Part shown: piece by piece, positions 4,665-19,871 of the stretch
How the letters are laid out: the number at the start of each line of letters is the position of its first letter
Numbering within the stretch: position 1 is the first letter of the stretch
Assembly: GCA_000002445.1 (NCBI GenBank)
Contig: CP000070.1
Span: forward strand, 1,120,001 to 1,184,000
Direction of reading: 5' to 3'
Source of the DNA: Trypanosoma brucei
Taxonomy: Eukaryota
Length of the DNA: 64,000 bases
The notes under the pieces: model-generated
The model's database searches: none
What the model saw: the letters and a program-made list of their open reading frames with translations, nothing else
Told to the model about the DNA's origin: nothing
Made by a program: the position numbers and the translations under genes

Positions 4665-5117
4665 CCCAACCGCTGGGGAGAAGAGCAATAATGAAGGTAA
4701 CACATCCCAGCAATGTATCGCTGGTAATAAATCAGTCATGTGGTGGCTTTGCATCTTAATTAAAGTTCTACCTTGTGACAAAGGGCTGCAGCCTATGCTA
4801 GGAAGTAAAATGGAGCGTTAATTTTATTCGGTGGGGAGTATTATTGTAAAGGTCCCTCAATAAACGTGTAAGACGTAACCCAAAGTAGGGGCTTAAGGAA
4901 GGATGGAAGGGCACTAGAGCATGTGTCCAGTCGCAGGTGCACACGCATAAGCCCCAATGTTCCTCTCCTTGTATTCCCGTGTTCCGCCTACACGCGAACA
5001 CCCGTACAAACTCAAGAGCACAAATCACTGCATCATTGTTTCTCTTCACTCTTCCCATAATTTTTCAATGTTTGCACAGACCCCATAGCAAGTAAGTGGA
5101 GAAAAAGGTAACACACA

Positions 5118-5858
5118 GTGAGTAAGAAAAGCAGCAACGACGAGAAACAAAAGTTTGGCGTAATGGTGATGAAGGCTTTCCCCCTTTCCCTGTTAGCGGC
5201 AACCACTGTGTTATTACTGCTGCTTCCTGTTCCTGGTAGGTGTGCTGATTGCTTTGCTCATTCAAATGATTACTCCACTCCCGGGGAGCCGTTCGGCAAA
5301 TCGAAGCACACAATCACCTTAAGTGGTGGGAACTGGGGCACTGTCATAGGCAGTGACGGAAATGCACTAAAGACGGCCCTTCTACTTGACATTTACGCTC
5401 AAATACTGCGACGGCATGCTTTTAACACTTCCGTCACCGTCGACGATATGCGACAGGGAGAGCATGGCATGGAAGCTGAAGTAACCGTTACACAGGTTTT
5501 GTTGACTGATGTCCCTAGGGCCGACTTGCAGCATACATGGAATCCCAACGAAATAACATCGTTGTTAATGCAAGGGGTGTACAAACACACAAAAGATAAA
5601 CACGATCCGCATTCAGACGTCCATCTCGTTAGTGTCAGACTCCCCGCTGCGACTACAGAGCTCCACAAGTGTGGGAAGGCCTGTTGGACTGTTCGGTTAA
5701 TAGGCATCTTTATAGGGATAGCCATGATTCTCATTGCAGCATACACTATATTCATAACGCGTAAATGGGAAAAGCAAGCGGAAAAAGAACCGGATGACGA
5801 CTCTTCGCGGGAACCATTGCCAGAACAAGAACAGAGGAGGTCGAGAACACGCGTGTAG
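5118..5858 (+). CDS. Small type-I membrane protein, family member A (signal peptide, ~150-aa ectodomain, one TM, charged tail)
   Basis: ORF with hydrophobic leader MVMKAFPLSLLAATTVLLLLLPVPG (functional start probably ~5163). Conserved motifs SKHTITLSG, TALLLDIYAQILRRHAF, VTVTQV, QHTWNPNEITSLLMQGVYKHT, CGKAC. TM segment LIGIFIGIAMILIAAYTIFI followed by K/E/D-rich tail. Confidence 0.7.
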   Translation: MSKKSSNDEKQKFGVMVMKAFPLSLLAATTVLLLLLPVPGRCADCFAHSNDYSTPGEPFGKSKHTITLSGGNWGTVIGSDGNALKTALLLDIYAQILRRHAFNTSVTVDDMRQGEHGMEAEVTVTQVLLTDVPRADLQHTWNPNEITSLLMQGVYKHTKDKHDPHSDVHLVSVRLPAATTELHKCGKACWTVRLIGIFIGIAMILIAAYTIFITRKWEKQAEKEPDDDSSREPLPEQEQRRSRTRV

Positions 5859-6787
5859 CATCGTTTCATTAGCAGCGGCGACAACAATCCGAAGTAATGC
5901 GCGGTTAGTTGCGGACAACATTCCACTGCGTCTCTTTGATATACTTTTTTTTGCTTTTGCTTTTCGCTGCATATACCAGCACCCCACTCCACGTGTGGTG
6001 AGGAGCTTGGGGTGGCATTCTTTGTTTGAACGCCTCCCATCCCCTTTTATGTTATTTTATGTTTTTTTTCCCCCTCTTGCTCGTTTATTCCCGCCCACCT
6101 TGTTGCTTTGACTGCCCTATGTACGACTGATAAATATGCATTGGACAACACATGGCTACTATTCAGTGTCTAAATACATCTTGCACACGCGGTCTTCCTG
6201 TTACTGCATGCACGGAAACTACTTTGAGCCCCCCCTTCCTTTCCCTCCCTACTTTTTCATCTTTCATATTATACCACATACATTTTGTGTATTACTCATT
6301 TTACCGTTAGCACCACCTTGCAAAGTTGTTAGCGTAATATGGGAATGTGTGTATTATATACTTCCCAATTGAATCCATATTCGGGAAGTTTTCTGTCTCC
6401 TCACTCGCCTCGTTGAAATCCTGTTAGTTGTCTCGGTATCAATGATAATATTGATGTGTGTTGAATGGTGGTTTATGGATGTGACTGTATTTTGTTGCGT
6501 ATGAACCACTGGAATGATTAAAAGGTCCTTTTAGCACTGCGGGGTTATGAATATTAATAGCCTGCACTCGTGTCAATGTATCTGGTAGTATTTTCACACC
6601 CCACCCACGTGCAACTTTTTACCTTTGCTCTGAGTTATTCTACTCCACACACCCATCGTTGCAACATTATTGGAAGTTAAGTGCTTTAGTAGTCATTAAT
6701 TTTGTAACGACTCTAATTAACGCGGTTCCGGTCGACAAAATTAAGCACTGCTGACACCCACTTCTTTATTTCCCCCACCTGGAAACA

Positions 6788-7126
6788 ATGACTCGGCAAT
6801 CCGATGTGCAAAAATCCATGAGGACAATTTCTGATGGAGCGGAAAAGGCAGTAGAAGTACGGAAATATGACGAGAAAGCGGTGCAGCAGCGGATGCAGAA
6901 ACTTTATGCCGATGTGGCGAAAAAGAAATTAGCTGAGAAGAAGCGAGCTGATGAGTTGGCGCAGATCCCGGTGTCGGAGGAGGATGTGCAACTTTTGGTG
7001 CGTGAATGCGGTTGGGAGGCGCAGGTGGCACAACAGAAACTCCGTGAGAGGAATGGAAGCGTTGTGGCGGTTCTTCGAGATGTTGCGGGACTCCCGAAGG
7101 CCAAAGCATCGAGTGGAACCTCCTGA
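6788..7126 (+). CDS. HYPK-like protein (Huntingtin-interacting protein K / NatA-associated, UBA-like C-terminus), copy 1
   Basis: 112 aa. The C-terminus VSEEDVQLLVRECGWEAQVAQQKLRERNGSVVAVLRDV parallels the HYPK UBA-like region (KKEDLELIMTEMEISRAAAERSLREHMGNVVEALIAL). The upstream charged helix KYDEKAVQQRMQKLYADVAKKKLAEKKRADEL parallels the HYPK central helix. Start codon uncertain because no AG sits between the polyY tract and the first ATG. Confidence 0.55.
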   Translation: MTRQSDVQKSMRTISDGAEKAVEVRKYDEKAVQQRMQKLYADVAKKKLAEKKRADELAQIPVSEEDVQLLVRECGWEAQVAQQKLRERNGSVVAVLRDVAGLPKAKASSGTS

Positions 7127-8339
7127 AACCTGACAAACAAAAAAAAACATTTACAATATAATGGTTATGACTGATTGAATGAGAGCAGCAGCGAGAGAAA
7201 CGGAAGTTGGCGGGGCCCTTTTGGTTGACTTGTTACGAGATGCTCAGAGGTGTGGAGCGTAAGCATGTGTGTAATCCCACTGAAGACAATTGCATGGTGA
7301 TGCAGGGGATGTTTGAGTTCATACAAATCTCAAACAAACACTGTAGAGGCGTTGAACTCATTAATGTCAAACTCCATCTGATTATTTCAGGCACGAATGC
7401 CCTCATGTAGGATGAAAAGGATTGCCACTTCCTTCATGTCGCAACGGATTCGCTATCAATTGCAACAGCTCCGACCTACAGCTTGTTGTGAGTTTTTAAC
7501 GCGCTTGGACTTCGGTAATGAACTTGGAACTTGATTTCCTGAGGATCGCCGCGGTGCATAATTTGTTCCTTCCCCATTTGATGTGAGCAGTGCGGTGCAC
7601 TTAACCATTGTGGTATCACTGCTTCGCTTTCTATGAGTGTGTGCTGTACAAATCTAATTCCTCTTCCACTATTTACCGTATTTGAAGCTCATTAAAGGAA
7701 CCATAATTAGCAAAGGGGGCACACTCAGTTGTCAAGGCAGTGGAACCCACAACATCCGCGCACAGCGGTGACACAAATGCATAATAGCTGCTTTTCATAC
7801 ACCTCTATTGTGGGGATGTTGATTCTCAAAGCGTAGTGGTTGTAATTTGAAATCAGGCATGGAGCGTCTGGGTAGGCGCATCGAGGCCAATCGCTTTATT
7901 ATGGGACAGTTGGATGGTATGCGAGGGTGCACGCCTGCTGTTGGTTGCAGCGGCAGCCTCAAAAAATTAAGTTATGCAACACTCGGTGTATTGCGCCGGG
8001 AGAATATGCGGCGGTGCGGGTGAGCCCTTTCACTGCACTTTGGGCAGCGGGGGTTGGGATGGTATCTACAGGGGATCTACTTCACATTGGAAAGTAAACG
8101 TCACAACTGCTGTCTCGACTGGTCGCTGATAGAACCCGTGAGGTGGAGAGAGAGACTGCTAGACCGGAGTTCCCTTCCAGGACGGATTAGCATCGGCAAA
8201 CCGAGAGGCACAAGCACGCCCTCGTTGTTGAATTACTGATCGGCATTCTGTTGGAGGTATGAAGGAATCGCAGTGGCGGCGGTGTTGATTAAAGTTTGAG
8301 AAACCTCGAGGAAAGGGAAAACCTCGTGTCGCAAAAGTC

Positions 8340-9515
8340 ACTATTTCCCGGGAGTCACACCGGCTATAGAGGCTGAAATTGAATACTTGAGAAAACAGTT
8401 GGGCGACTGTAAAGAACAACTTATAAAATACAGAGCACACTTTGAGCAGGTTAACCACGTTATTAAGAATAGACGAATTAAAGGAAATGGTTCAGCAGCA
8501 AGCTCAGACATTGGAAAAGCTCGAAAAATATTATCAAGAACAAAACGCCCAAAAGGTCCCGTGGCCGCTGATCCTCGGAAACGATGTCTGTAAACCCCCA
8601 ACCTTCCTCCATAGACCGTCAACAGAGCACTCAGATGTACCAACATGTTTCCACTACTCCGCTCGGCTTTAGTATAAACTGGGTCGGATGGAAAAACAGA
8701 GCGGAAACCTCTGAAGGACTTTTACAATTGTATGACGAATGTGGGACTACAATTGGGAATCCTGAGAGGCCTTCATGGTACAATTCTGTAAATTAATGGG
8801 GGGGAAGTGAATCATCTCTACATTTTTGGACGTTCACAAGATGGGTACGGTATTATGACCACTTCGTGGCTACGGCGAATAGAATGCCAATACAATATAT
8901 AACAACAGGGGCAGCTATGTATAAAACATGGCGAATGGAAATGGCAGCACAGAAAAGAGGAGTATTTATCCCACGGGCAATACAAGAAGGATTGGATACT
9001 GAAGGAGGTATCAATGTATGATAAGATGGCAAACGCAGCTGCAAAACAAAGAGCTCAGAGAAGTCGCCAAGGACGGAATTGAAGCAATTTCAACAACCAT
9101 CAGCGTCGAACAAGCCCAAACGGGCGAAGGAAGTCCCCATCGCGGAAACAGTAGCAAAGGCGAGACTGAGCGGGGCTCGTAAAATATACCGCTCCCGACA
9201 TAAGAGAATGAAACAAAAGGCGAAGAAAGAATGGTCAAAACTACAAATCCACAAGAACAGTGAATATGTTCGAAAACACATGGGAAACAAGAAAATTCTA
9301 TGGGGGTGTTGCGATCCGCGCGCGGATATACGCAACAAAGAGATACGGGGATGCACAAATAAAATAGTAGCTCCGGCACCACCTAACCCAGTGACTGTCC
9401 CCCGCGCGCAGATTAGGCCCTGTTCGTCAGGGAACTCTGAGCGAGAGCACTGTCCGGACCTTAAAATGCCCATTCAAGCACCGGAAGTCAAGCCGATGCT
9501 ATGGCGTAAACTATT
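8340..9515 (+). mobile_element. Partial inverted copy of a degenerate retroelement 5' region (gag-like, frameshifted) inside the left arm
   Basis: Mirror of 10482-11657. Coiled-coil ORF fragments in three frames (LRKQLGDCKEQLIKYRAHFEQVNHV / LRIDELKEMVQQQAQTLEKLEKYYQEQNAQK) are followed by a very basic ORF (MKQFQQPSASNKPKRAKEV...RSRHKRMKQKAKKEW...). The frame changes imply decay. Confidence 0.4.
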
Positions 9516-11657
9516 AGGCTGGCATTAACACGCTTGCACGCATTGTTGAAAAAAACTGAACTTCCTCATTATTTCTTGGAACCAGTCTAGCGGCTCAGTT
9601 GCTAATACTTTTGCCGTAGCCACCAGGCTTCCAAATAATTTTTCAAGGTCTCGCAGGTCGATTAATTTCAAATATTCTTGTGTCGTCATCTGAATAAATT
9701 GTCTAGCCACATTATTTTCAATTTATTCAGATGTTTTTCTGTTACTTGTACACTTTTATTATTGTGGTCCAAGACCGCTCCTATGGAATCATAACTGGTG
9801 GCGTAAGGCAGCGGTTCGGATAATGTCACGCAGTATTTCTCCACCTTGCCGTGGAGGAGGCTAATTATTTTTGGCGCTTGTTTTTCCGTAATTGCTAGTC
9901 TGAAATTATCGATCCAGACATCACCGTCTATCATCCGGTGCTCTCAACGCGTTACCTGCGAGTGCCCCGTTAATGTCATTACCAACCACTGCATAATTTC
10001 GCAGCTTGTTGTTAATCCCATGGGCAATTGTGTCATTTCCAAAGGCGAACCATCTGCAGTTGCAATGGAGAAGCATGCGGTGGTGTTTACCGGCAGGTCA
10101 ATTTCATAGTAACTTGCTTTTAAATCACCCACTATTGCTCCAGCAGCGGAGAGTATGTCCAGGTACTCCTGGAACGGGTTTAATTCCACTATACAGCGAT
10201 AATCACACACATTATCTAAATAGTCATTCGTCGTGTTTGGCCATACCAATAGTCTCCTCCTGTTTTTCCAGGGTTCATCGACTGTAGATGCACGGGCGAC
10301 TGGGGGATCCACTGTCGATTTCGTGATATTCGCGCTGAGTACGGTCTTGGCATCACTGGATGATAGCCACTAACGCGCTGGGACGTCGCCTATTTCGTCC
10401 CGTCTTACGTATTGCGCGGCATCGGCTAATTGCCGGAGCAGCACTTGAATTCTTTCTTGCACCTTATTTTTTGTCGAACGCAATAGTTTACGCCATAGCA
10501 TCGGCTTGACTTCCGGTGCTTGAATGGGCATTTTAAGGTCCGGACAGTGCTCTCGCTCAGAGTTCCCTGACGAACAGGGCCTAATCTGCGCGCGGGGGAC
10601 AGTCACTGGGTTAGGTGGTGCCGGAGCTACTATTTTATTTGTGCATCCCCGTATCTCTTTGTTGCGTATATCCGCGCGCGGATCGCAACACCCCCATAGA
10701 ATTTTCTTGTTTCCCATGTGTTTTCGAACATATTCACTGTTCTTGTGGATTTGTAGTTTTGACCATTCTTTCTTCGCCTTTTGTTTCATTCTCTTATGTC
10801 GGGAGCGGTATATTTTACGAGCCCCGCTCAGTCTCGCCTTTGCTACTGTTTCCGCGATGGGGACTTCCTTCGCCCGTTTGGGCTTGTTCGACGCTGATGG
10901 TTGTTGAAATTGCTTCAATTCCGTCCTTGGCGACTTCTCTGAGCTCTTTGTTTTGCAGCTGCGTTTGCCATCTTATCATACATTGATACCTCCTTCAGTA
11001 TCCAATCCTTCTTGTATTGCCCGTGGGATAAATACTCCTCTTTTCTGTGCTGCCATTTCCATTCGCCATGTTTTATACATAGCTGCCCCTGTTGTTATAT
11101 ATTGTATTGGCATTCTATTCGCCGTAGCCACGAAGTGGTCATAATACCGTACCCATCTTGTGAACGTCCAAAAATGTAGAGATGATTCACTTCCCCCCCA
11201 TTAATTTACAGAATTGTACCATGAAGGCCTCTCAGGATTCCCAATTGTAGTCCCACATTCGTCATACAATTGTAAAAGTCCTTCAGAGGTTTCCGCTCTG
11301 TTTTTCCATCCGACCCAGTTTATACTAAAGCCGAGCGGAGTAGTGGAAACATGTTGGTACATCTGAGTGCTCTGTTGACGGTCTATGGAGGAAGGTTGGG
11401 GGTTTACAGACATCGTTTCCGAGGATCAGCGGCCACGGGACCTTTTGGGCGTTTTGTTCTTGATAATATTTTTCGAGCTTTTCCAATGTCTGAGCTTGCT
11501 GCTGAACCATTTCCTTTAATTCGTCTATTCTTAATAACGTGGTTAACCTGCTCAAAGTGTGCTCTGTATTTTATAAGTTGTTCTTTACAGTCGCCCAACT
11601 GTTTTCTCAAGTATTCAATTTCAGCCTCTATAGCCGGTGTGACTCCCGGGAAATAGT
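9516..11657 (-). mobile_element. Degenerate retroelement (gag-like plus Ty3/gypsy/DIRS-type reverse-transcriptase remnants), spanning right arm and unique centre
   Basis: Minus-strand order is coiled-coil gag-like ORFs (11610->11201), then the basic protein (10918->10370), then RT motifs in the unique centre. The RT motifs are GDLKASYYEIDL (cf. DLKSGYHQI), TACFSIATADGSPLEMTQLPMGLTTSCEIMQWL (cf. KTAF.T..G.YEF.VMPFGLTNAPATFQRLM), VWIDNFRLAI (cf. VYLDDILIFS), then FGSLVATAKVLATEPLDWFQE (cf. the post-RT F..LK.AL.SAPVL..PDF block). Multiple stops and frameshifts mean it is non-functional. Confidence 0.5.
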
Positions 11658-14117
11658 GACTTTTGCGACACGAGGTTTTCCCTTTCCTCGAGGTTTCTCA
11701 AACTTTAATCAACACCGCCGCCACTGCGATTCCTTCATACCTCCAACAGAATGCCGATCAGTAATTCAACAACGAGGGCGTGCTTGTGCCTCTCGGTTTG
11801 CCGATGCTAATCCGTCCTGGAAGGGAACTCCGGTCTAGCAGTCTCTCTCTCCACCTCACGGGTTCTATCAGCGACCAGTCGAGACAGCAGTTGTGACGTT
11901 TACTTTCCAATGTGAAGTAGATCCCCTGTAGATACCATCCCAACCCCCGCTGCCCAAAGTGCAGTGAAAGGGCTCACCCGCACCGCCGCATATTCTCCCG
12001 GCGCAATACACCGAGTGTTGCATAACTTAATTTTTTGAGGCTGCCGCTGCAACCAACAGCAGGCGTGCACCCTCGCATACCATCCAACTGTCCCATAATA
12101 AAGCGATTGGCCTCGATGCGCCTACCCAGACGCTCCATGCCTGATTTCAAATTACAACCACTACGCTTTGAGAATCAACATCCCCACAATAGAGGTGTAT
12201 GAAAAGCAGCTATTATGCATTTGTGTCACCGCTGTGCGCGGATGTTGTGGGTTCCACTGCCTTGACAACTGAGTGTGCCCCCTTTGCTAATTATGGTTCC
12301 TTTAATGAGCTTCAAATACGGTAAATAGTGGAAGAGGAATTAGATTTGTACAGCACACACTCATAGAAAGCGAAGCAGTGATACCACAATGGTTAAGTGC
12401 ACCGCACTGCTCACATCAAATGGGGAAGGAACAAATTATGCACCGCGGCGATCCTCAGGAAATCAAGTTCCAAGTTCATTACCGAAGTCCAAGCGCGTTA
12501 AAAACTCACAACAAGCTGTAGGTCGGAGCTGTTGCAATTGATAGCGAATCCGTTGCGACATGAAGGAAGTGGCAATCCTTTTCATCCTACATGAGGGCAT
12601 TCGTGCCTGAAATAATCAGATGGAGTTTGACATTAATGAGTTCAACGCCTCTACAGTGTTTGTTTGAGATTTGTATGAACTCAAACATCCCCTGCATCAC
12701 CATGCAATTGTCTTCAGTGGGATTACACACATGCTTACGCTCCACACCTCTGAGCATCTCGTAACAAGTCAACCAAAAGGGCCCCGCCAACTTCCGTTTC
12801 TCTCGCTGCTGCTCTCATTCAATCAGTCATAACCATTATATTGTAAATGTTTTTTTTTGTTTGTCAGGTTTCAGGAGGTTCCACTCGATGCTTTGGCCTT
12901 CGGGAGTCCCGCAACATCTCGAAGAACCGCCACAACGCTTCCATTCCTCTCACGGAGTTTCTGTTGTGCCACCTGCGCCTCCCAACCGCATTCACGCACC
13001 AAAAGTTGCACATCCTCCTCCGACACCGGGATCTGCGCCAACTCATCAGCTCGCTTCTTCTCAGCTAATTTCTTTTTCGCCACATCGGCATAAAGTTTCT
13101 GCATCCGCTGCTGCACCGCTTTCTCGTCATATTTCCGTACTTCTACTGCCTTTTCCGCTCCATCAGAAATTGTCCTCATGGATTTTTGCACATCGGATTG
13201 CCGAGTCATTGTTTCCAGGTGGGGGAAATAAAGAAGTGGGTGTCAGCAGTGCTTAATTTTGTCGACCGGAACCGCGTTAATTAGAGTCGTTACAAAATTA
13301 ATGACTACTAAAGCACTTAACTTCCAATAATGTTGCAACGATGGGTGTGTGGAGTAGAATAACTCAGAGCAAAGGTAAAAAGTTGCACGTGGGTGGGGTG
13401 TGAAAATACTACCAGATACATTGACACGAGTGCAGGCTATTAATATTCATAACCCCGCAGTGCTAAAAGGACCTTTTAATCATTCCAGTGGTTCATACGC
13501 AACAAAATACAGTCACATCCATAAACCACCATTCAACACACATCAATATTATCATTGATACCGAGACAACTAACAGGATTTCAACGAGGCGAGTGAGGAG
13601 ACAGAAAACTTCCCGAATATGGATTCAATTGGGAAGTATATAATACACACATTCCCATATTACGCTAACAACTTTGCAAGGTGGTGCTAACGGTAAAATG
13701 AGTAATACACAAAATGTATGTGGTATAATATGAAAGATGAAAAAGTAGGGAGGGAAAGGAAGGGGGGGCTCAAAGTAGTTTCCGTGCATGCAGTAACAGG
13801 AAGACCGCGTGTGCAAGATGTATTTAGACACTGAATAGTAGCCATGTGTTGTCCAATGCATATTTATCAGTCGTACATAGGGCAGTCAAAGCAACAAGGT
13901 GGGCGGGAATAAACGAGCAAGAGGGGGAAAAAAAACATAAAATAACATAAAAGGGGATGGGAGGCGTTCAAACAAAGAATGCCACCCCAAGCTCCTCACC
14001 ACACGTGGAGTGGGGTGCTGGTATATGCAGCGAAAAGCAAAAGCAAAAAAAAGTATATCAAAGAGACGCAGTGGAATGTTGTCCACAACTAACCGCGCAT
14101 TACTTCGGATTGTTGTC
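10482..14117 (-). repeat. Right arm of the large inverted repeat
   Basis: See left arm. Only one mismatch was found (5922 C vs complement of 14075), giving LVADNI vs LVVDNI in mirrored ORFs. Confidence 0.9.
12871..13209 (-). CDS. HYPK-like protein, copy 2 (identical mirror copy in the right arm)
   Basis: 112-aa translation identical to 6788..7126. Confidence 0.55.
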   Translation of the reverse strand: MTRQSDVQKSMRTISDGAEKAVEVRKYDEKAVQQRMQKLYADVAKKKLAEKKRADELAQIPVSEEDVQLLVRECGWEAQVAQQKLRERNGSVVAVLRDVAGLPKAKASSGTS

Positions 14118-14975
14118 AGCACTATTGCTATCAGATATGCCTTCGTTACTTTCTGTTTCCATTCTGGCATCGTCGACGTTTAGGACATTGACTGCATGTT
14201 TATTTGGAGTAGGAATGTCTTCCTCTTCTTCTTCTTCATCTTCCTCTTTTTCTGCATCCCTTCTCCATTTAAAAATTAAGAATACGCAAATTGCAGAAAC
14301 GAGAGCCATAAAAAACAAAATGACGCCCGAGAAGGTTCGCAGAGCCGCGCAGCCCTCCCCGCACCTATGAAGTTTTTCACTTATGGTCGGGTTCTTGACG
14401 CTCAGGAGGCGCACGGCACCGTTGCTACCGGTTTCGCTGTTACCACCGTACTCATTGTACAAGTTGTTTGTGTGTTTATACGTTCCTTGCATTAGTAACG
14501 ACGATATCTCGCTGGGATTCCATGTGTGCTGCATCTTCTCGCTCGGGGTACCATTTATCAAAACTTGCGTAATGGTCACTGTAACACTCATGTGTTTACC
14601 TCGAGTATTTACGTCGTTGATGTCAGCTGTGGTGTCGAAAGCGTGTCTCCGTAATATTTGAGCGTAAATATCAAGAAGAAGAGCCGTCTTTAGTTTCCTT
14701 TCACCCCCCGTATACACACCACCCCACTTATCGCCACTAAAAGTGATTACATGTTTCGATGTGCCCAACTGTTCTTCGTCAGTGGAATTATTGTCCCTCG
14801 GTGTTGCAAAGCAATTTTTCGAGAGAGTGGGCATGGGGATCAGCAACAGCATTGCTGCTGTTGTAAGAGAAAATGAAACCTTCACTGTCATTATGCTGAA
14901 AAGGGCTTTCTCTTTTCCTTTCTTTTTGTAAGCTACCCGTGTTTTACTTCTTTGCTCTAAGCCAAAACTTACCAA
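14100..14975 (-). CDS. Small type-I membrane protein, family member B
   Basis: Hydrophobic leader MTVKVSFSLTTAAMLLLIPMPTL. Motifs SKHVITFSGDKWG, TALLLDIYAQILRRHAF (identical 17-mer to member A), VTVTITQV, QHTWNPSEISSLLMQGTYKHT, CGEGC. TM VILFFMALVSAICVFLIF. Long acidic tail (EEDEEEEEEDIP...). The ORF-track start at 14975 is probably upstream of the true Met. Confidence 0.65.
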   Translation of the reverse strand: MVSFGLEQRSKTRVAYKKKGKEKALFSIMTVKVSFSLTTAAMLLLIPMPTLSKNCFATPRDNNSTDEEQLGTSKHVITFSGDKWGGVYTGGERKLKTALLLDIYAQILRRHAFDTTADINDVNTRGKHMSVTVTITQVLINGTPSEKMQHTWNPSEISSLLMQGTYKHTNNLYNEYGGNSETGSNGAVRLLSVKNPTISEKLHRCGEGCAALRTFSGVILFFMALVSAICVFLIFKWRRDAEKEEDEEEEEEDIPTPNKHAVNVLNVDDARMETESNEGISDSNSADNNPK

Positions 14976-15899
14976 TAATTCGAGTACGGTTGAAGAAAGA
15001 AAGAAAGGGGGGAGTGAAGGGAATCATGTTGGACAGAATCCACAACAAAAATTATAATTAACCGAATGGATCAACTTCATTGTCCAAACAGTCTCTGTTG
15101 TACTGCTGTTGTCGTCACCGTTCATTTGTGGTGAGGGAAGGAATTGTGTGTGCCGATTTATCCTTCCTGTTTTCTCTTAATAACGAGACAATAAAATAAG
15201 TGACCGTTAATATCTTTTATTTTCTTTTCTTCCCCCGGTACTCGAACCGCAAGGCGGGGGAGTCACATATAACGAGAGATCAAAGATACAAATAAATAAT
15301 ATAAAACAGCAGAAGGGCACACACACACATACATATATATATATATACATGTATGAGGGAACGAAATTAAGATAGTTTTTAACAAGGAGGAAGAAATAAA
15401 GCACTGAAAACTAAAAGAAACTCGACGCAACGGCTCTCAATATTCGCCGTACTTTACTCTCAGGGATCGCAGAGGTGTATTTTTTTTTCTTTCCTTGTCC
15501 CATTTCTTTTGGCACCTCCCGCGGCCTGCTCGTGGAAGAATGCACATAATTACGATAACTTACGTTCATGTCATATAAAATAATAATAATAGACAACAAC
15601 GACGCGGTGGCGATGATTGTTTTGATTAAATAACCTGAAGGGGGAAAAAAAAAAGAAACCTCAGTGGAGGAATATTCACAGATGGATGTTTTTTTCATTA
15701 TTATTTTGTTTTTGTTTCTGCGGGTGACAGCCTTTCCTTTAATTTTATTTGTTGGTTATGTACCGCTCATGTCCTACGTTGAGTGGTGGAAGAAGCACAA
15801 AAACAAGACTACAGCACAACTGAGTGAACAAATAAACTAACAACAAAAGTAATCGGATTGAAGCAGTGACGAATAAAACTTTTTTCACTACATATGCCT

Positions 15900-16613
15900 T
15901 TATTTGTTTGTTTCCTCAGTCCTATAGTGGTCTTGATTGTAAGGATGATTGGCATTGCTCTCATCTTTTTCTTTTGGTTCCCCACGGCAACAGTTGACGA
16001 TTAGGTAAATGATCAAAATAAGTAAAGAAACCCCCATTAAAATAATAACTACCATCGCCAGCTTTAATAGTCGCCTGCATGTGTCATCGCACTCACCAAA
16101 ATGCAGTTTTCCATCATGCACCTTCACGGAGATGAGTTCCGGTCTCTTCACACCTTCGTACAAACTTAGCGTTTTACTATAATCCGTCTGCGTAATAAGT
16201 GAATTCACCTCCGCAGGCGGCCAAATGTGTTGCCTCTCAGGATTTGAAACTTGTGCCCTGACGGTTTGTACAACAACTATGAGTATTTCGATAAAGTTGT
16301 GTGTGGGGTCGAATGAGGTAATTAAAACCTCCGTCAGAAAACTTCCATTCCGTTGCACGTAACGATCGATGTCGCTCACAAGTATTTCCCTCAGTTGTTC
16401 CTCTTTCTGCTGGACAGTTGCCGCCCAATTGTCGCCATCAAATTTCACGGTATGTTTTGATGTTGAGGACTGCTGGATGTCGTCAGCACACCTACCAGGA
16501 ACAGGAAGCAGCAGTAATAACACAGTGGTTGCCGCTAACAGGGAAAGGTGGAAAGCCTTCATCACCATTACGCCAAACTTTTGTTTCTCGTCGTTGCTGC
16601 TTTTCTTACTCAC
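15900..16613 (-). CDS. Small type-I membrane protein, family member C
   Basis: N-terminal 44 aa (MSKKSSNDEKQKFGVMVMKAF[H/P]LSLLAATTVLLLLLPVPGRCAD) nearly identical to member A. Divergent ectodomain with a QHIWPPAEVNSLITQTDYSKT motif, CDDTC pair, TM MVVIILMGVSLLILIIYLIV and a charged tail. Confidence 0.65.
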   Translation of the reverse strand: MSKKSSNDEKQKFGVMVMKAFHLSLLAATTVLLLLLPVPGRCADDIQQSSTSKHTVKFDGDNWAATVQQKEEQLREILVSDIDRYVQRNGSFLTEVLITSFDPTHNFIEILIVVVQTVRAQVSNPERQHIWPPAEVNSLITQTDYSKTLSLYEGVKRPELISVKVHDGKLHFGECDDTCRRLLKLAMVVIILMGVSLLILIIYLIVNCCRGEPKEKDESNANHPYNQDHYRTEETNK

Positions 16614-16785
16614 TGTGTGTTACCTTTTTCTCCACTTACTTGCTATGGGGTCTGTGCAAACATTGAAAAATTATGGGAAGAGTGAAGAGAAACAATGGTG
16701 CAGTGATTTGTGCTCTTGAGTTTGTACGGGTGTGCGCGTGTATTAAGTCAAGAAATGAGTGAGATAACAATGACCAATAAACAGG
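16497..16785 (-). promoter_or_regulatory. Conserved 5' flank/5' UTR block of the membrane-protein family (copy upstream of member C)
   Basis: About 285 bp nearly identical to 18108-18384 (upstream of member D). Its proximal ~180 bp is also found, reverse-complemented, at 5035-5215 (upstream of member A). It covers the presumed splice-acceptor region, 5' UTR and signal-peptide codons. Confidence 0.55.
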
Positions 16786-17538
16786 AGTCAGAAAGAGTAT
16801 TTGTACAAAGAAAAATTAGTGAACGATGCGGGAGAGCAACAACACAAGCTCAATAACAATAACGGAAAAAAGCAATGAAGACGACAGTCGCTTTGCCTAC
16901 TTGTCATCACAAATGTTAATTTCCTGCTGATGGGCAATAACCCAATGCCTACCCTCGGTAATTTGGTGAGATTCAGAGAAAAAAAGCAAAGGAATGTGGG
17001 AATTTCTTCGATCGAATGGAAACCCCTCAAAAAGGAGGAAAAAGTAAACATACGTAAAAATAACTCCCCCTCCTTCTGTCACACGAATATACAAGAATAT
17101 ATGTATTTTTACGCACACGTGAATTAAATGTTGCGCGCAACAAGAAATAAAACACAAGAGAACTTACATTGCCATTTTTTGTTTTAGTATCATCTGTTTA
17201 AGACAAATATCAACCGGTGAAGCACAAAGAGTTGTTGAAACAGAGATAAATAGATAAATTCAATAGTGTATATGAAGCACGGAGTGATGACAGTCGAAAA
17301 TACGAAGGAACGGGATGCGCATAACACAGAAGAGTGAATACGGTGCAATGACAAATCAAAAGAAAAAATACAACTCACTCGATATCATGAGACTTCTACA
17401 ATCAGAAAGCATTTGCTATTAGCGTGGAAAAAGAATGAAGAAGCAATAAAATATGTATAACAATGGCACGTACCTATAGCCACAGCTAGTATTGGGGGCA
17501 TCGAACCTGATGGGGCTAGTCCGCCGTTTTCGGTCACT

Positions 17539-18219
17539 TTAATCCCTTTCTTCAAGTTTCGGACGCCGGAAATGCGAATAAATCCAAATGTACGCCGTCA
17601 CACTAACTATTATGGTCATAGCAGCGAGAGACACGGCCACCACACCTCTAAGAATTTGACAGCTCGTGCCACATAATGGCGGACCCGGGGGAACCAAAGG
17701 AAGTCTGACGGTAATGAGTTCAACATCCCCATGGGGTTTGTACGTGCTTTTTGTGTGTTCAAATTTTCCCTGCATTATCATAGAGTTGGCCTCACTGGGA
17801 TTCCACACATGCTGCAACTCAGGCGTGGGGTCATCAGCCAATGCAACTTGTGTAACGGTCACTTCAACTTCCATTTCCCCCTCTCTCACTTTCATATTGT
17901 TGATGGTAACGGTGGTGTTGACGGCGTACTCCCGTTGCGTTTGCAAGTAAATGTCGAGCAAAAGTGACTTCCTCAACTTCGCTTCATCACTTATGACAAT
18001 TTCGTCCCATTTCGTGCCTTTAAAGGTGATTATGTGCTTCGATTTGCCGAACTCCGTTGGTTGCAAGTACAACATCGTACCATTGAGGCAGTCAGAGTGT
18101 GCGGGAACAGGAAGCAGCAGTAATAACACAGTGGTTGCCGCTAACAGGGAAAGGGGGAAAGCCTTCATCACCATTACGCCAAACTTTTGTTTCTCGTCGT
18201 TGCTGCTTTTCTTACTCAC
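17539..18219 (-). CDS. Small type-I membrane protein, family member D
   Basis: Same leader (MSKKSSNDEKQKFGVMVMKAFPLSLLAATTVLLLLLPVP). Motifs SKHIITFKGTKW, SLLLDIYLQ, VEVTVTQV, QHVWNPSEANSMIMQGKFEHT, CGTSC. TM VVAVSLAAMTIIVSVTAYIWI and a short basic tail. Confidence 0.65.
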   Translation of the reverse strand: MSKKSSNDEKQKFGVMVMKAFPLSLLAATTVLLLLLPVPAHSDCLNGTMLYLQPTEFGKSKHIITFKGTKWDEIVISDEAKLRKSLLLDIYLQTQREYAVNTTVTINNMKVREGEMEVEVTVTQVALADDPTPELQHVWNPSEANSMIMQGKFEHTKSTYKPHGDVELITVRLPLVPPGPPLCGTSCQILRGVVAVSLAAMTIIVSVTAYIWIYSHFRRPKLEERD

Positions 18220-19871
18220 TGTGTGTTACCTTTTTCTCCACTTACTTGCTATGGGGTCTGTGCAAACATTGAAAAATTATGGGAAGAGTGAAGAGAAACA
18301 ATGGTGCAGTGATTTGTGCTCTTGAGTTTGTACGGGTGTGCGCGTGTATTAAGTCAAGAAATGAGTGAGATAACAATGACCAATAACGCTACTTGATGAT
18401 GGAAACAAAAAGGGTACACGCATAAGAAGTCTACCACCATTCCATGGTGTGATTATTGCAAACTCGAAGGTAGTGTCGATTAACCACCCAGACGAGCCAT
18501 CTCCAGTTGTCGTTACTGTTGTTAATAGACCGAAAACAAGCCCTAGTAAGCGGTTAATTACTGGAGGAAGGATTTGCTCCTCTTTATTGGTGCTGCATAC
18601 TAACTTGTTATCATTGTTCCTTCAGCACTGCTGTTCAGTACGATAGGAGGAGGGGATTTGAATATATATATATATATATAAACAACTTTGCAGAACCAAA
18701 ATGCATCACTGAATTCCAACGAAGCGTTAAGACGAAAAATGATAACCCCCTCTCAGCATTGTCGACGCCAAGTTTATCGTTTTAAATACAAACATGCACG
18801 GAAATACGTATGATGCGTGCCCATAAACCCGTTGGATCAAATATTCACGCGGCGGCACTCTGTAAAATATAAAATGCCCGTCATGCGGCACGACGGAACG
18901 AGCGGGTCAACTTGTGGTTTCTACCCTTTTGTATCTTCAGGGCGCAATGGTGCTTCCACAACGCACCGAAGCTACTCAATGTCGGTTCACTATCGTGTGG
19001 CAACTTCATGACTAGGCCATTTCGATTTTGAAGTTATACTTCACTACTTAGTCGCCCCACGCTCCATTTCATTTGGAAGTACCGTATCTAACGCGGTGCC
19101 AAGGCTTGTTTTTGCTCCTTTGGCAGAACAAAAACATTCAGTAGCAAACGGTTGGCAGTAAAGTTTGAGATGGGCCGACTAAGAACTCAGAGCCGTTGGC
19201 GCGGATGTCCCCACGGGTTGGTTTAGTATGCCCAAGTGACGTGCTCAGTGAGTTCTTCAGCTGAGTCCTTACGTATTGTGTGAAGGCCGTAGTTAAGCGG
19301 CAGCATTCGTGGGGCCAGATTATTTGACCAAATAGCTGCGACAAGTGAAGGAATACCTTCAGCAGCCTAGTTCTTGTCCATAGTTCCCCTAGAGATAGCT
19401 CTTATGAAGGAGAAAAAGTGAAGGCAACCCATTGGATGTTAGAAGTGAAGCGACGCGAAAGGGGGAAACAGTAAATCTTGCGGATGAAGAAATGCAAACG
19501 TATATCTCATGAGAGTTTGGCTCGAAAGGGAGGCGTTTTGTCAAAAGCGTACGAATGGAAAGGGAAAGAAGGGACAAGTGGCATTTGCGTACTCCCTTTA
19601 AAGTTAGGAACCACAGTTGCACGTCTTCCCGGATGCTCATCCATCCACCTCTTCGCACTGTCACCAGGGCCCCCCTGCCGATTGGGACATGGCTCTCATA
19701 TCAAATAACGCTTTCAAAAGCCTTAACAATTAATAGTCATAAATAATAATAATAATATTGATAGTAGTCGGCACGATGCTGTGCCATGAACGAAGACCGA
19801 CATCCATTCAGTCACAACGCAGTTTCACGCCGTGGAGAACTGCAACGCTGGATTCAGCTTTTTCCTGGTGA

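What the first reader, a model, noticed from the sequence alone, without database searches (positions are those of the whole stretch)
5118..18219. Clustered family of small type-I membrane proteins with conserved leader and membrane-proximal motifs but hypervariable ectodomains
Four paralogues lie at 5118-5858 (+), 14100-14975 (-), 15900-16613 (-) and 17539-18219 (-). They share one architecture. This comprises a signal peptide, an SKH.I.F.G..W motif, (T/S)(A/L)LLLDIY.Q, VTVT.TQV, QH.WNP.E..S(L/M).MQG.Y.HT, a Cys pair (CG..C) immediately before a single TM helix, and a short charged cytoplasmic tail (acidic in two members). Three members have a virtually identical first ~44 codons. In contrast, the ~150-aa ectodomains share only the motif skeleton, and the tails differ in length and charge. 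Conserved framework with diversified surface loops, in an array flanking a recombinogenic palindrome and retroelement at a strand-switch region, is the pattern expected for a surface-exposed family under diversifying selection or gene conversion in a trypanosome. I could not match it to a named family from memory.
Basis: partly seen in the sequence, partly recalled or inferred. Interest (0 to 1): 0.7.

Follow-up and report, generated by a model that had tools for sequence, protein, structure and literature searches.

The report
Known trypanosome Fam79 surface-protein cluster
The four genes are the already named Fam79 family of small surface membrane proteins of Trypanosoma brucei (ESP12, ESP13, EVMP1 and a fourth); they are old, conserved paralogues whose identical leaders come from local gene conversion, not a rapidly diversifying antigen family.

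Summary
The four ORFs are real and share the described architecture. Their products are 100% identical to T. brucei TREU927 chromosome 7 proteins Tb927.7.4230/4260/4270/4280. This is Fam79 of the published cell-surface phylome: ESP12, ESP13, EVMP1/Fam79.3 and Fam79.4. Members were already detected in surface proteomes and localised by tagging, so the family itself is known.

- True starts are ATG, 15 or 28 codons downstream of the listed GTG/TTG.
- The ectodomain core is the best conserved part of the mature protein, not hypervariable.
- dN/dS is 0.3-0.5 between paralogues and pooled 0.29-0.40 between subspecies.
- Small homologues occur across the genus Trypanosoma, including T. cruzi.

What this work adds, as far as I could find:
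- The identical leader (about 175 nt of 5' flank plus the signal peptide) is a sharp-edged gene-conversion tract. The same pattern recurs in T. vivax (DNA level) and T. congolense (protein level), although the paralogues predate speciation.
- The ectodomain models confidently as a ferredoxin-like, SEA/MAD-like membrane-adjacent domain.
- It is homologous to Pfam FAZ1_cons, a module repeated in giant kinetoplastid proteins without signal peptide or membrane segment.
- The 3.6-kb palindrome is real and evolves in concert.

Molecular function remains unknown.

The parts
4989..5162 (+). Conserved 5' block upstream of Fam79.1: pyrimidine tract, probable trans-splice acceptor and 5'UTR. It is shared at 99% with Fam79.3 and Fam79.4.
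   Evidence: Inverted repeats I2/I3. The alignment shows sharp borders. The splice-signal reading is inference from the sequence.
5163..5858 (+). Fam79.1 = Tb927.7.4230 = ESP12, 231 aa. Signal peptide is about codons 1-29 (5163-5249), SEA-like ectodomain 5247-5690, membrane segment about codons 177-199, then a mixed-charge tail.
   Evidence: 100% identical to XP_846046. Gene id. Hydropathy. Structure model.
5880..9515 (.). Left arm of the palindrome. Its first 18 nt (5880-5897) are a relic of the Fam79.2-type C-terminus 'DNNPK*'.
6788..7126 (+). HYPK-like UBA-domain gene, copy 1, inside the left arm.
   Evidence: Pfam UBA_HYPK, E 2e-11.
7255..7392 (+). Decayed Fam79 pseudogene fragment in the left arm.
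   Evidence: tblastn gives 48% identity over 46 aa to Fam79.4 residues 119-164, E 1.3e-8. Stops flank the fragment.
9516..10481 (.). Unique spacer at the palindrome centre, at the convergence of the two gene arrays.
   Evidence: No identifiable protein family.
10482..14117 (.). Right arm of the palindrome. It overlaps the last 18 nt of the Fam79.2 coding sequence.
12605..12742 (-). Mirror copy of the decayed Fam79 fragment.
12871..13209 (-). HYPK-like gene, copy 2.
   Evidence: Identical ORF. Same inverted pair in T. b. gambiense and T. equiperdum.
14100..14891 (-). Fam79.2 = Tb927.7.4260 = ESP13, 263 aa. It has its own leader (not the shared block) and a long acidic tail.
15900..16568 (-). 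Fam79.3 = Tb927.7.4270 = TbEVMP1, 222 aa. It is the most divergent member, is orthologous to a T. congolense gene, and has a Cys-Cys pair just inside the membrane.
   Evidence: Pfam FAZ1_cons 31.7 bits.
16483..16780 (-). Shared 5' block of Fam79.3: signal-peptide codons plus upstream flank. It is 100% identical to the Fam79.4 block over 283 nt.
   Evidence: D1 and I2.
17539..18174 (-). Fam79.4 = Tb927.7.4280, 211 aa, with a short tail.
18104..18386 (-). Shared 5' block of Fam79.4.
   Evidence: D1 and I3.

Best explanation
IDENTITY (shown). The window is T. brucei brucei TREU927 chromosome 7. The four genes are Tb927.7.4230, .4260, .4270 and .4280, the Fam79 family: ESP12, ESP13, EVMP1/Fam79.3 and Fam79.4.

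WHAT THE PROTEINS ARE (shown by sequence, model and profile comparison).
- They are type-I membrane glycoprotein candidates.
- The extracellular part is a short disordered N-terminal peptide plus one compact alpha/beta domain of about 110 aa.
- The domain has beta-alpha-beta-beta-alpha-beta order (ferredoxin-like). Its closest solved structures are animal SEA and cadherin membrane-adjacent (MAD) domains.
- A C-x3-C pair, one membrane helix and a paralogue-specific cytoplasmic tail follow.
- The domain is homologous to Pfam FAZ1_cons, which otherwise occurs in tandem in giant kinetoplastid proteins that lack a signal peptide and membrane segments.

HOW THE GENE PATTERN AROSE (shown).
- The paralogues are ancient. 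The F79.3 lineage predates the T. brucei/T. congolense split, and F79.1/2/4 are a later brucei-side expansion.
- They evolve under purifying selection.
- The identical leaders arise because a tract is repeatedly homogenised between paralogues by gene conversion. The tract holds the splice-acceptor region, the 5'UTR and the signal peptide, and stops at the signal-peptide/mature-protein junction.
- This happened independently in T. brucei, T. vivax and, at protein level, T. congolense.
- The ancestral array was probably [Fam79-HYPK] units in tandem, as in T. vivax. In T. brucei an inverted duplication made a 3.6-kb palindrome whose arms are kept identical by arm-to-arm conversion.

WHAT THEY DO (inferred, about 0.3 confidence). 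They are invariant, low-profile membrane-adjacent proteins that sit beneath the VSG or procyclin coat. The conserved ectodomain serves as a lateral or self-association module. The divergent tails send each paralogue to a different surface domain and life stage: flagellar pocket and endosomes, whole surface, or flagellar membrane and vesicles.
For: Identity:
- 100% protein identity to TREU927 entries, with the UniRef names ESP12 and ESP13.
- Gene ids in the Gadelha 2015 supplement.
- Fam79.1-79.4 are listed by gene id in bioRxiv 10.1101/2020.10.07.330316. Fam79 is named as a cell-surface-phylome family in PMC4587319.

Architecture and domain:
- Hydropathy, Cys positions and glycosylation sequons.
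- AF2 model: pLDDT 85.3, pTM 0.78.
- All four proteins hit Pfam FAZ1_cons in one register, but only F79.3 is above the cut-off.
- hhalign Fam79 versus FAZ1_cons repeats: 98.8%, E 1e-16, 93 columns.

Evolution:
- dN/dS values.
- Tree: within-species monophyly 0-2%, F79.3 with its T. congolense orthologue 100%.
- Sharp 5' block borders.
- T. vivax: 241-797 nt at 99.6-99.9% ending at codon 32, against 28% identity in the mature part.
- T. congolense: identical 23-25 aa leaders on cores 27-31% identical.
- Lineage-wide shared substitutions in the block.
- Palindrome arm-to-arm differences of 1-11, against 40-45 between genomes.
- Synteny with T. vivax and the Fam79 relic in each arm.
- PMC3605285 lists Fam78-81 among families constrained by selection.

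Localisation and stage.
Against: - The function is not tested by anything here, and no partner or ligand is known.
- The FAZ1_cons repeats used for the profile comparison were picked by their match to the N-terminal third of the Fam79 profile, so that part of the hhalign score is circular. The Pfam hits are independent, but three of four fall below the cut-off.
- dS between paralogues is saturated, so their dN/dS values are rough.
- Orthologue counts are small (22-38 substitutions in all). F79.3 versus T. equiperdum gives 0.87.
- ESP13 carries a clustered six-residue replacement between subspecies.
- The T. congolense evidence is protein-only.
- SignalP and TMHMM were not available. The signal peptide and membrane segment rest on hydropathy and on published predictions.
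Confidence: 0.85

Rival explanations
1. One reading: a surface antigen family whose ectodomain loops diversify under immune (diversifying) selection, with the leader and framework held constant.
For: - The proteins are at the surface.
- The disordered N-terminal peptide between the signal peptide and the SKH motif is the most variable ectodomain part.
- ESP13 has an 11-nt, six-residue clustered change in the beta1-alpha1 loop between TREU927 and T. b. gambiense.
- F79.3 pN/pS is 0.87 against T. equiperdum, based on 8 changes.
Against: - Ectodomain dN/dS is 0.29-0.49 between paralogues, and pooled 0.29-0.40 between subspecies.
- The ectodomain core is better conserved than the membrane segment and tail.
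- Orthology extends across species.
- The family is present in trypanosomes without VSG-type antigenic variation.
- There are only four copies.
- Jackson 2013 places Fam78-81 among constrained families.
Confidence: 0.08
2. The identical leaders reflect recent duplication, after which the rest of each gene diverged very fast. Gene conversion between old paralogues would not be involved.
For: Tandem arrangement of the genes. The gene array differs in copy number between subspecies: T. b. gambiense has the F79.2-F79.3 pair twice.
Against: - Synonymous sites are saturated in the gene bodies (dS above 1.3) but show 0-0.12 in the leader.
- Identity drops abruptly from 99-100% to about 40-60%.
- F79.3 groups with a T. 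congolense orthologue at 100% bootstrap, while its leader matches its T. brucei paralogues.
- The same substitutions are shared by all paralogues within a lineage.
- The pattern recurs in T. vivax with a different leader sequence.
Confidence: 0.02
3. Fam79 proteins are receptors or co-receptors for a host or vector ligand taken up through the flagellar pocket, as the transferrin and haptoglobin-haemoglobin receptors are.
For: - ESP12 is in the flagellar pocket and endosomes, the pattern of recycling receptors.
- Expression is stage-specific.
- Polar residues are invariant on the domain: S, H, D, R, Q, E.
Against: - The ectodomain is one domain of about 110 aa next to the membrane.
- It is conserved in trypanosomes with very different hosts and life styles.
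- ESP13 and Fam79.3 are not restricted to the pocket.
- The same domain works inside the cell in cytoskeletal proteins.
Confidence: 0.12
4. The domain is an oligomerisation or adhesion module. Outside the cell it would zip membranes together or shape them, for example in flagellum-cell body contact, nanotubes or vesicles. This would mirror what FAZ1_cons repeats do inside the cell.
For: - Homology to FAZ1_cons.
- A Pfam-B domain, PB000506, which is probably the same module, marks nine T. brucei cytoskeleton and flagellum-attachment-zone proteins.
- Fam79.3 is in the flagellar membrane and in filaments and vesicles budding from it. Fam79.1 is in the bloodstream-form vesicle proteome.
- Each ectodomain has an odd number of cysteines (three), which would allow intermolecular disulfides.
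Against: - No function is known for FAZ1_cons itself.
- The identity of PB000506 with PF23398 was not checked.
- ESP12 and ESP13 are not enriched at the attachment zone.
- Presence in vesicles may be passive.
Confidence: 0.15

Closest known systems
Fam79 of the African-trypanosome cell-surface phylome (Tb927.7.4230/4260/4270/4280; ESP12, ESP13, TbEVMP1)
   Same: These are the same genes. The proteins are 100% identical, and the architecture of signal peptide plus single C-terminal membrane helix matches.
   Different: Nothing differs. This work adds fold, remote homology and evolutionary mechanism to a family so far described only by proteomics and localisation.
Pfam PF23398 FAZ1_cons, probably the former Pfam-B PB000506 domain of FAZ1, FAZ8, GB4, PFC20 and FLAM8
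   Same: Shared H-x-[IV]-x-F-x-G-x2-W ... D ... motif and the same beta-alpha-beta-beta-alpha-alpha order. hhalign gives 98.8%.
   Different: FAZ1_cons occurs as 3-14 tandem copies in 0.3-5 thousand-residue proteins. Almost none of these has a signal peptide or membrane segment. Fam79 has one copy, outside the cell. It adds a fourth strand, a QH-W-P-E insertion and a C-x3-C, and three of four members score below the Pfam cut-off.
Animal SEA domains (MUC1/MUC16, TMPRSS11D, TMPRSS6, GPR126) and cadherin membrane-adjacent domains (PCDH15 MAD12, CELSR1)
Invariant surface glycoproteins ISG65/ISG75 of T. brucei
   Same: Type-I, non-variant surface proteins of the bloodstream stage, found in the pocket, endosomes and surface and thought to lie beneath the VSG coat (own knowledge).
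   Different: ISGs have much larger helical-bundle ectodomains (own knowledge). No Pfam or other sequence similarity was seen. Fam79 is genus-wide and one member is procyclic and flagellar.
T. cruzi MASP/mucin-type families (conserved leader and C-terminus, hypervariable centre)
   Same: Leader conserved between members whose mature parts differ (own knowledge of MASP).
   Different: Those families have hundreds to thousands of copies, with GPI anchors and truly hypervariable centres. Fam79 has four copies with membrane helices, and its centres are old, orthologous and constrained.

Membership tests
Fam79 (T. brucei Tb927.7.4230-4280) | Sequence identity with the four named genes | tested here: met
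   100% identity to XP_846046/049/050/051 on the 2.2-Mb TREU927 chromosome.
Fam79 (T. brucei Tb927.7.4230-4280) | Predicted signal peptide plus single C-terminal membrane helix | tested here: met
   Kyte-Doolittle segments at residues 1-28 and about 165-210 in all four proteins. A published prediction for .4270 agrees. SignalP and TMHMM were not available.
Fam79 (T. brucei Tb927.7.4230-4280) | Presence at the parasite surface | not testable with these tools
   Taken from the literature only. ESP12 is in the flagellar pocket and endosomes, ESP13 across the whole surface. Fam79.3 is in the flagellar membrane and vesicles.
Pfam PF23398 FAZ1_cons | Score at or above the curated cut-off of 27.5 bits | tested here: inconclusive
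   F79.3 scores 31.7 bits (met). F79.1, F79.2 and F79.4 score 13.1, 16.6 and 13.3 bits (below), but in the same register. The T. congolense orthologue scores 35 bits.
Pfam PF23398 FAZ1_cons | Profile-level homology over the whole domain | tested here: met
   hhalign 98.8-98.9%, E 1e-16 to 2.5e-17, 92-93 columns. The repeats were selected partly through the Fam79 profile, so this is partly circular.
Pfam PF23398 FAZ1_cons | Same secondary-structure order | tested here: met
   Fam79.1 has E-H-E-E-H-H-E. The FAZ1_cons repeat has E-H-E-E-H-H.
Pfam PF23398 FAZ1_cons | Context: tandem copies in large cytoskeleton-associated proteins without signal peptide or membrane helix | tested here: not met
   Fam79 has a single extracellular copy. 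The giant hits have 2-14 copies, and almost none has a hydrophobic segment.
SEA domain (Pfam PF01390 and SEA-like folds) | Ferredoxin-like beta-alpha-beta-beta-alpha-beta fold next to the membrane | tested here: met
SEA domain (Pfam PF01390 and SEA-like folds) | Sequence match to the SEA profile | tested here: not met
   No SEA hit at E <= 1 in Pfam. No PDB sequence hit at E <= 10.
SEA domain (Pfam PF01390 and SEA-like folds) | G/S-V-V-V autoproteolysis site between strands 2 and 3 (present in many, not all, SEA domains) | tested here: not met
   No conserved G-S at that position in the 21-sequence alignment. F79.2 has 'HMSVTV' only.
SEA domain (Pfam PF01390 and SEA-like folds) | Association with a Ser/Thr-rich O-glycosylated stalk | tested here: not met
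   Only 0-20 residues precede the domain.
ISG65/75 invariant surface glycoproteins | Sequence match to the ISG family profile or a large helical ectodomain | tested here: not met
   No such Pfam hit at E <= 1. The ectodomain is a 110-aa alpha/beta domain.
   Paralogue dN/dS 0.29-0.49. Pooled orthologue pN/pS 0.29-0.40. Orthology is conserved across species. The one clustered patch in ESP13 remains unexplained.

The most novel reading that the evidence does not exclude
The Fam79 ectodomain may be the extracellular branch of an ancient kinetoplastid SEA-like module (FAZ1_cons) that is otherwise used in tandem inside the cell in flagellum-attachment and cytoskeletal giants. In that reading it acts as a homotypic membrane-adjacent adhesion or oligomerisation unit in flagellar-membrane contacts and in nanotube or vesicle formation. 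Its genes would additionally be kept on a common 'leader cassette' (splice site, 5'UTR and signal peptide) by conversion tracts that selection stops exactly at the mature-protein border in three salivarian species.
Probability: 0.12. Interest if true: 0.6.

Novelty: already known. Interest (0 to 1): 0.3.

Why it matters
The family itself is not a discovery. It has been in the T. brucei surface catalogues since 2013-2015, and three members have been localised. The value here is in correcting the picture: these are invariant, conserved surface proteins, not a diversifying antigen family. Invariance matters for anyone considering them as diagnostic or vaccine targets.

Three further points give the family a testable structural and evolutionary frame:
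- a confident SEA/MAD-like fold;
- homology to the FAZ1_cons repeat of cytoskeletal giants;
- recurrent conversion confined to the leader cassette.

They also link an uncharacterised surface family to an uncharacterised cytoskeletal domain. None of this yet tells us the function.

Tried and rejected
- Pfam on the four proteins gave only weak FAZ1_cons hits and spurious membrane-helix matches such as Tweety, TMEM154 and EphA2_TM.
- A PDB sequence search with the ectodomain profile found nothing at E <= 10.
- The word-indexed protein search found only the T. brucei paralogues, both with one sequence and with a 21-sequence alignment. The exhaustive profile search was needed to reach other species.
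- Foldseek against the PDB found nothing at E <= 0.001. The afdb50 library was not available.
- Shimogawa 2015 (PMC4587323) is not held. Fam79 is not mentioned by number in the main text or held supplement of Jackson 2013.
- The retroelement claim was tested on the spacer ORF 9944-10312(-). There was no Pfam hit at E <= 10 apart from noise, no PDB hit and no homologue. There was also no tblastn match to the T. vivax ingi-like proteins.
- A donor search for the ESP13 codon 59-65 patch found none in the window or in the gambiense and equiperdum loci.
- No tRNA genes or tandem repeats were found.
- Palindrome as an assembly artefact: rejected, because the same inverted gene pair is present in two other assemblies.
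- Recent duplication as the origin of the shared leader: rejected (see rival explanations).

Full report
OBSERVATION.

The four ORFs exist at the stated coordinates. A profile built from the family finds no further copy in any frame of the 64-kb window. Alignment shows the listed motifs.

Hydropathy gives an N-terminal hydrophobic leader and a single strong C-terminal hydrophobic segment in each protein. A C-x3-C pair lies just before the membrane segment, and a short charged tail follows.

The listed GTG/TTG starts come from a bacterial start-codon set. The database proteins begin at ATG at 5163, 14891, 16568 and 18174, giving products of 231, 263, 222 and 211 aa.

IDENTITY.

The products are 100% identical to T. 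brucei brucei TREU927 proteins on a 2.2-Mb chromosome. UniRef names two of them 'Enriched in surface-labeled proteome protein 12/13'.

- The supplement of Gadelha et al. 2015 (PMC4587319) gives ESP12 = Tb927.7.4230 and ESP13 = Tb927.7.4260.
- That paper localises ESP12 to the flagellar pocket and endosomes, and ESP13 to the whole cell surface. It names Fam79 as a well-represented cell-surface-phylome family of unknown function.
- A preprint (10.1101/2020.10.07.330316) lists Tb927.7.4230, 4260, 4270 and 4280 as Fam79.1-79.4.
  - It shows Fam79.3 (TbEVMP1) in the procyclic flagellar membrane and in vesicles.
  - It notes Fam79.1 in bloodstream-form vesicle proteomes.
  - It reports opposite stage preferences for the paralogues.
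- Tb927.7.4270 mRNA is raised in stumpy forms.
- Jackson et al. 2013 place Fam78-81 among conserved families constrained by selection.

The family is therefore already named and partly characterised.

IS THE ECTODOMAIN HYPERVARIABLE?

No. Among F79.1, F79.2 and F79.4 the ectodomain core is 44-52% identical (27-33% to F79.3). The membrane segment and tail are only 16-31% identical.

- Nei-Gojobori dN/dS for the ectodomain is 0.29-0.49, with dS saturated.
- DNA for T. b. gambiense and T. equiperdum was recovered. Against these, each protein differs by 1-13 residues.
- Pooled pN/pS is 0.29 (T. equiperdum) and 0.40 (T. b. gambiense).
- The one oddity is an 11-nt cluster changing six residues of ESP13 (codons 59-65, the beta1-alpha1 loop). 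No donor for it was found in the sequences held.

TAXONOMIC RANGE AND AGE.

An exhaustive profile search found 45 proteins at E <= 0.001.

- Small type-I homologues occur in T. congolense, T. vivax, T. cruzi, T. conorhini, T. grayi, T. theileri and T. melophagium.
- There is also a 551-aa type-I relative in Phytomonas.
- A neighbour-joining tree of the core groups F79.3 with a T. congolense gene at 100% bootstrap, and with a T. vivax gene at 73%.
- F79.1/2/4 group with TcIL3000_7_3410 at 84%.
- Within-species monophyly is recovered in 0-2% of replicates.

THE SHARED LEADER.

F79.1, F79.3 and F79.4 share a block at 99-100% identity. It begins about 175 nt upstream of the ATG and ends at codon 29. 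F79.3 and F79.4 share 283 nt at 100%. Both edges are sharp, and the flanking sequence is about 40-60% identical.

- In T. vivax, Tv209 and Tv229 are 99.9% identical over 797 nt ending at codon 32, while their mature parts are 28% identical.
- In T. congolense, three paralogues have identical 23-25-residue leaders on cores that are 27-31% identical.
- The leaders differ between species.
- In T. brucei, positions -136/-135 read AC in all three TREU927 paralogues and GT in all gambiense and equiperdum paralogues. Other sites are mosaic.

Together this shows repeated, ongoing gene conversion limited to the cassette of splice-acceptor region, 5'UTR and signal peptide. T. cruzi and T. grayi paralogues do not share leaders.

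LOCUS STRUCTURE.

Genes on the + strand (WDR3 homologue, F79.1, HYPK-like) converge on genes on the - strand (HYPK-like, F79.2-4, NudC homologue and onward). Between them lies a 3,636-nt inverted repeat with 1 mismatch and a 966-nt spacer.

- The same inverted HYPK pair, flanked by the 231-aa and 263-aa genes, is present in the gambiense DAL972 and T. equiperdum assemblies.
- Arms differ by 1-11 positions within a genome but by 40-45 between genomes. The arms therefore evolve in concert.
- The left arm begins with a relic of the F79.2-type C-terminus, 22 nt beyond the F79.1 stop.
- Each arm holds a decayed Fam79 fragment just 3' of HYPK.
- T. vivax has WDR3-Fam79-HYPK-Fam79-HYPK-Fam79 on one strand, followed by an ingi-like element. 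This suggests the ancestral tandem unit.
- The T. brucei spacer ORF that looks reverse-transcriptase-like by eye has no detectable relative.

FOLD AND REMOTE HOMOLOGY.

AlphaFold2 on the F79.1 ectodomain with 21 homologues gives pLDDT 85.3 and pTM 0.78. The element order is beta-alpha-beta-beta-alpha-alpha-beta, and the N-terminal 10 residues are disordered.

- Foldseek finds only generic ferredoxin-like folds, all below significance.
- All four proteins hit Pfam FAZ1_cons in one register. Only F79.3 is above the cut-off.
- The giant hits of the profile search carry 2-14 strong FAZ1_cons copies. These proteins run from 0.3 to 5 thousand residues and come from Leishmaniinae, Angomonas and relatives. 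Almost all lack hydrophobic segments.
- Profile-profile comparison gives 98.8% probability over 93 columns.
- Sunter et al. 2015 described a Pfam-B domain shared by nine T. brucei cytoskeletal and attachment-zone proteins. It is probably the same module, but I did not verify this.

MECHANISM.

Shown: identity, architecture, constraint, age of the paralogues, leader conversion, palindrome concerted evolution.

Supported by models: the SEA/MAD-like fold and the homology to FAZ1_cons.

Inferred: the proteins are low-profile invariant membrane-adjacent proteins beneath the coat, with a conserved association domain and paralogue-specific tails that set their location.

- F79.3 and most non-brucei homologues carry juxtamembrane Cys-Cys and a P-Y-P or N-P-F tail motif. 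These could be acylation and sorting signals. This is speculation.

VERDICT.

This is a correct observation of a real family, but the family is already known. The diversifying-selection reading is not supported.

Noticed in passing
window 5880-9515 and 10482-14117 (spacer 9516-10481): A 3.6-kb palindrome with 1 mismatch lies at a convergent strand-switch. It is conserved in T. b. gambiense and T. equiperdum. Arms differ by 1-11 positions within a genome and 40-45 between genomes, which indicates arm-to-arm gene conversion.
   Followed up: yes
window 7255-7392 (+) and 12605-12742 (-): Each arm holds a decayed Fam79 pseudogene fragment just 3' of the HYPK-like gene (48% identity over 46 aa to Fam79.4, E 1.3e-8). 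This matches the alternating Fam79-HYPK order seen in T. vivax.
   Followed up: yes
window 5880-5897: Twenty-two nt after the Fam79.1 stop lies an exact copy of the last five codons and stop of Fam79.2 (DNNPK*). Fam79.1 therefore seems to have acquired an earlier stop after the inverted duplication.
   Followed up: partly
window 14697-14717 (Fam79.2/ESP13 codons 59-65): There are 11 nucleotide changes in about 20 nt between TREU927 and T. b. gambiense (YTGGER to SVQSEK) in the predicted beta1-alpha1 loop. No donor sequence was found in the loci held. It could be a micro-conversion from an unsampled allele or a local hotspot.
   Followed up: partly
L004 (T. b. gambiense DAL972 chromosome 7): The Fam79.2-Fam79.3 pair occurs twice in T. 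b. gambiense, with near-identical copies. The gene array therefore varies in copy number between subspecies.
   Followed up: partly
window 9944-10312 (-), in the spacer: This 122-aa ORF contains a reverse-transcriptase-like 'LPMG...S..I.Q' stretch by eye. It has no Pfam, PDB or protein-database relative and no match to the T. vivax ingi-like proteins, so its nature is unresolved.
   Followed up: yes
window 6788-7126 (+) and 12871-13209 (-): Two identical copies of a 112-aa HYPK-like UBA-domain gene lie in the arms, one per arm. T. vivax also has two copies, but in tandem.
   Followed up: partly
L009 (T. vivax), 5392-10630 and 12126-14693: The locus is syntenic: WDR3, then three Fam79 genes alternating with two HYPK genes on one strand. 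A non-LTR retroelement follows (Exo_endo_phos and RVT_1 hits).
   Followed up: partly
P0016, P0021-P0025, P0034-P0048 (Leishmaniinae, Angomonas and others): These giant proteins (1.5-5 thousand residues) have multiple FAZ1_cons repeats, and almost none has a hydrophobic segment. The repeat models as an SEA-like beta-alpha-beta-beta-alpha-alpha unit (pLDDT 91). I know of no published fold or function for it.
   Followed up: partly
Fam79.3 tail (window about 15900-15995) and homologues P0015, P0017, P0018, P0026, P0029: Juxtamembrane Cys-Cys clusters and a P-Y-P or N-P-F motif near the C-terminus are conserved across species in the Fam79.3-like and stercorarian proteins. They are absent from Fam79.1/2/4. 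They may be acylation and sorting signals.
   Followed up: no
window 5399-6040 (-), 13957-14370 (+), 16369-16719 (+), 17951-18325 (+): Long antisense ORFs overlap the Fam79 genes. They have no independent support and are most likely chance reading frames.
   Followed up: no
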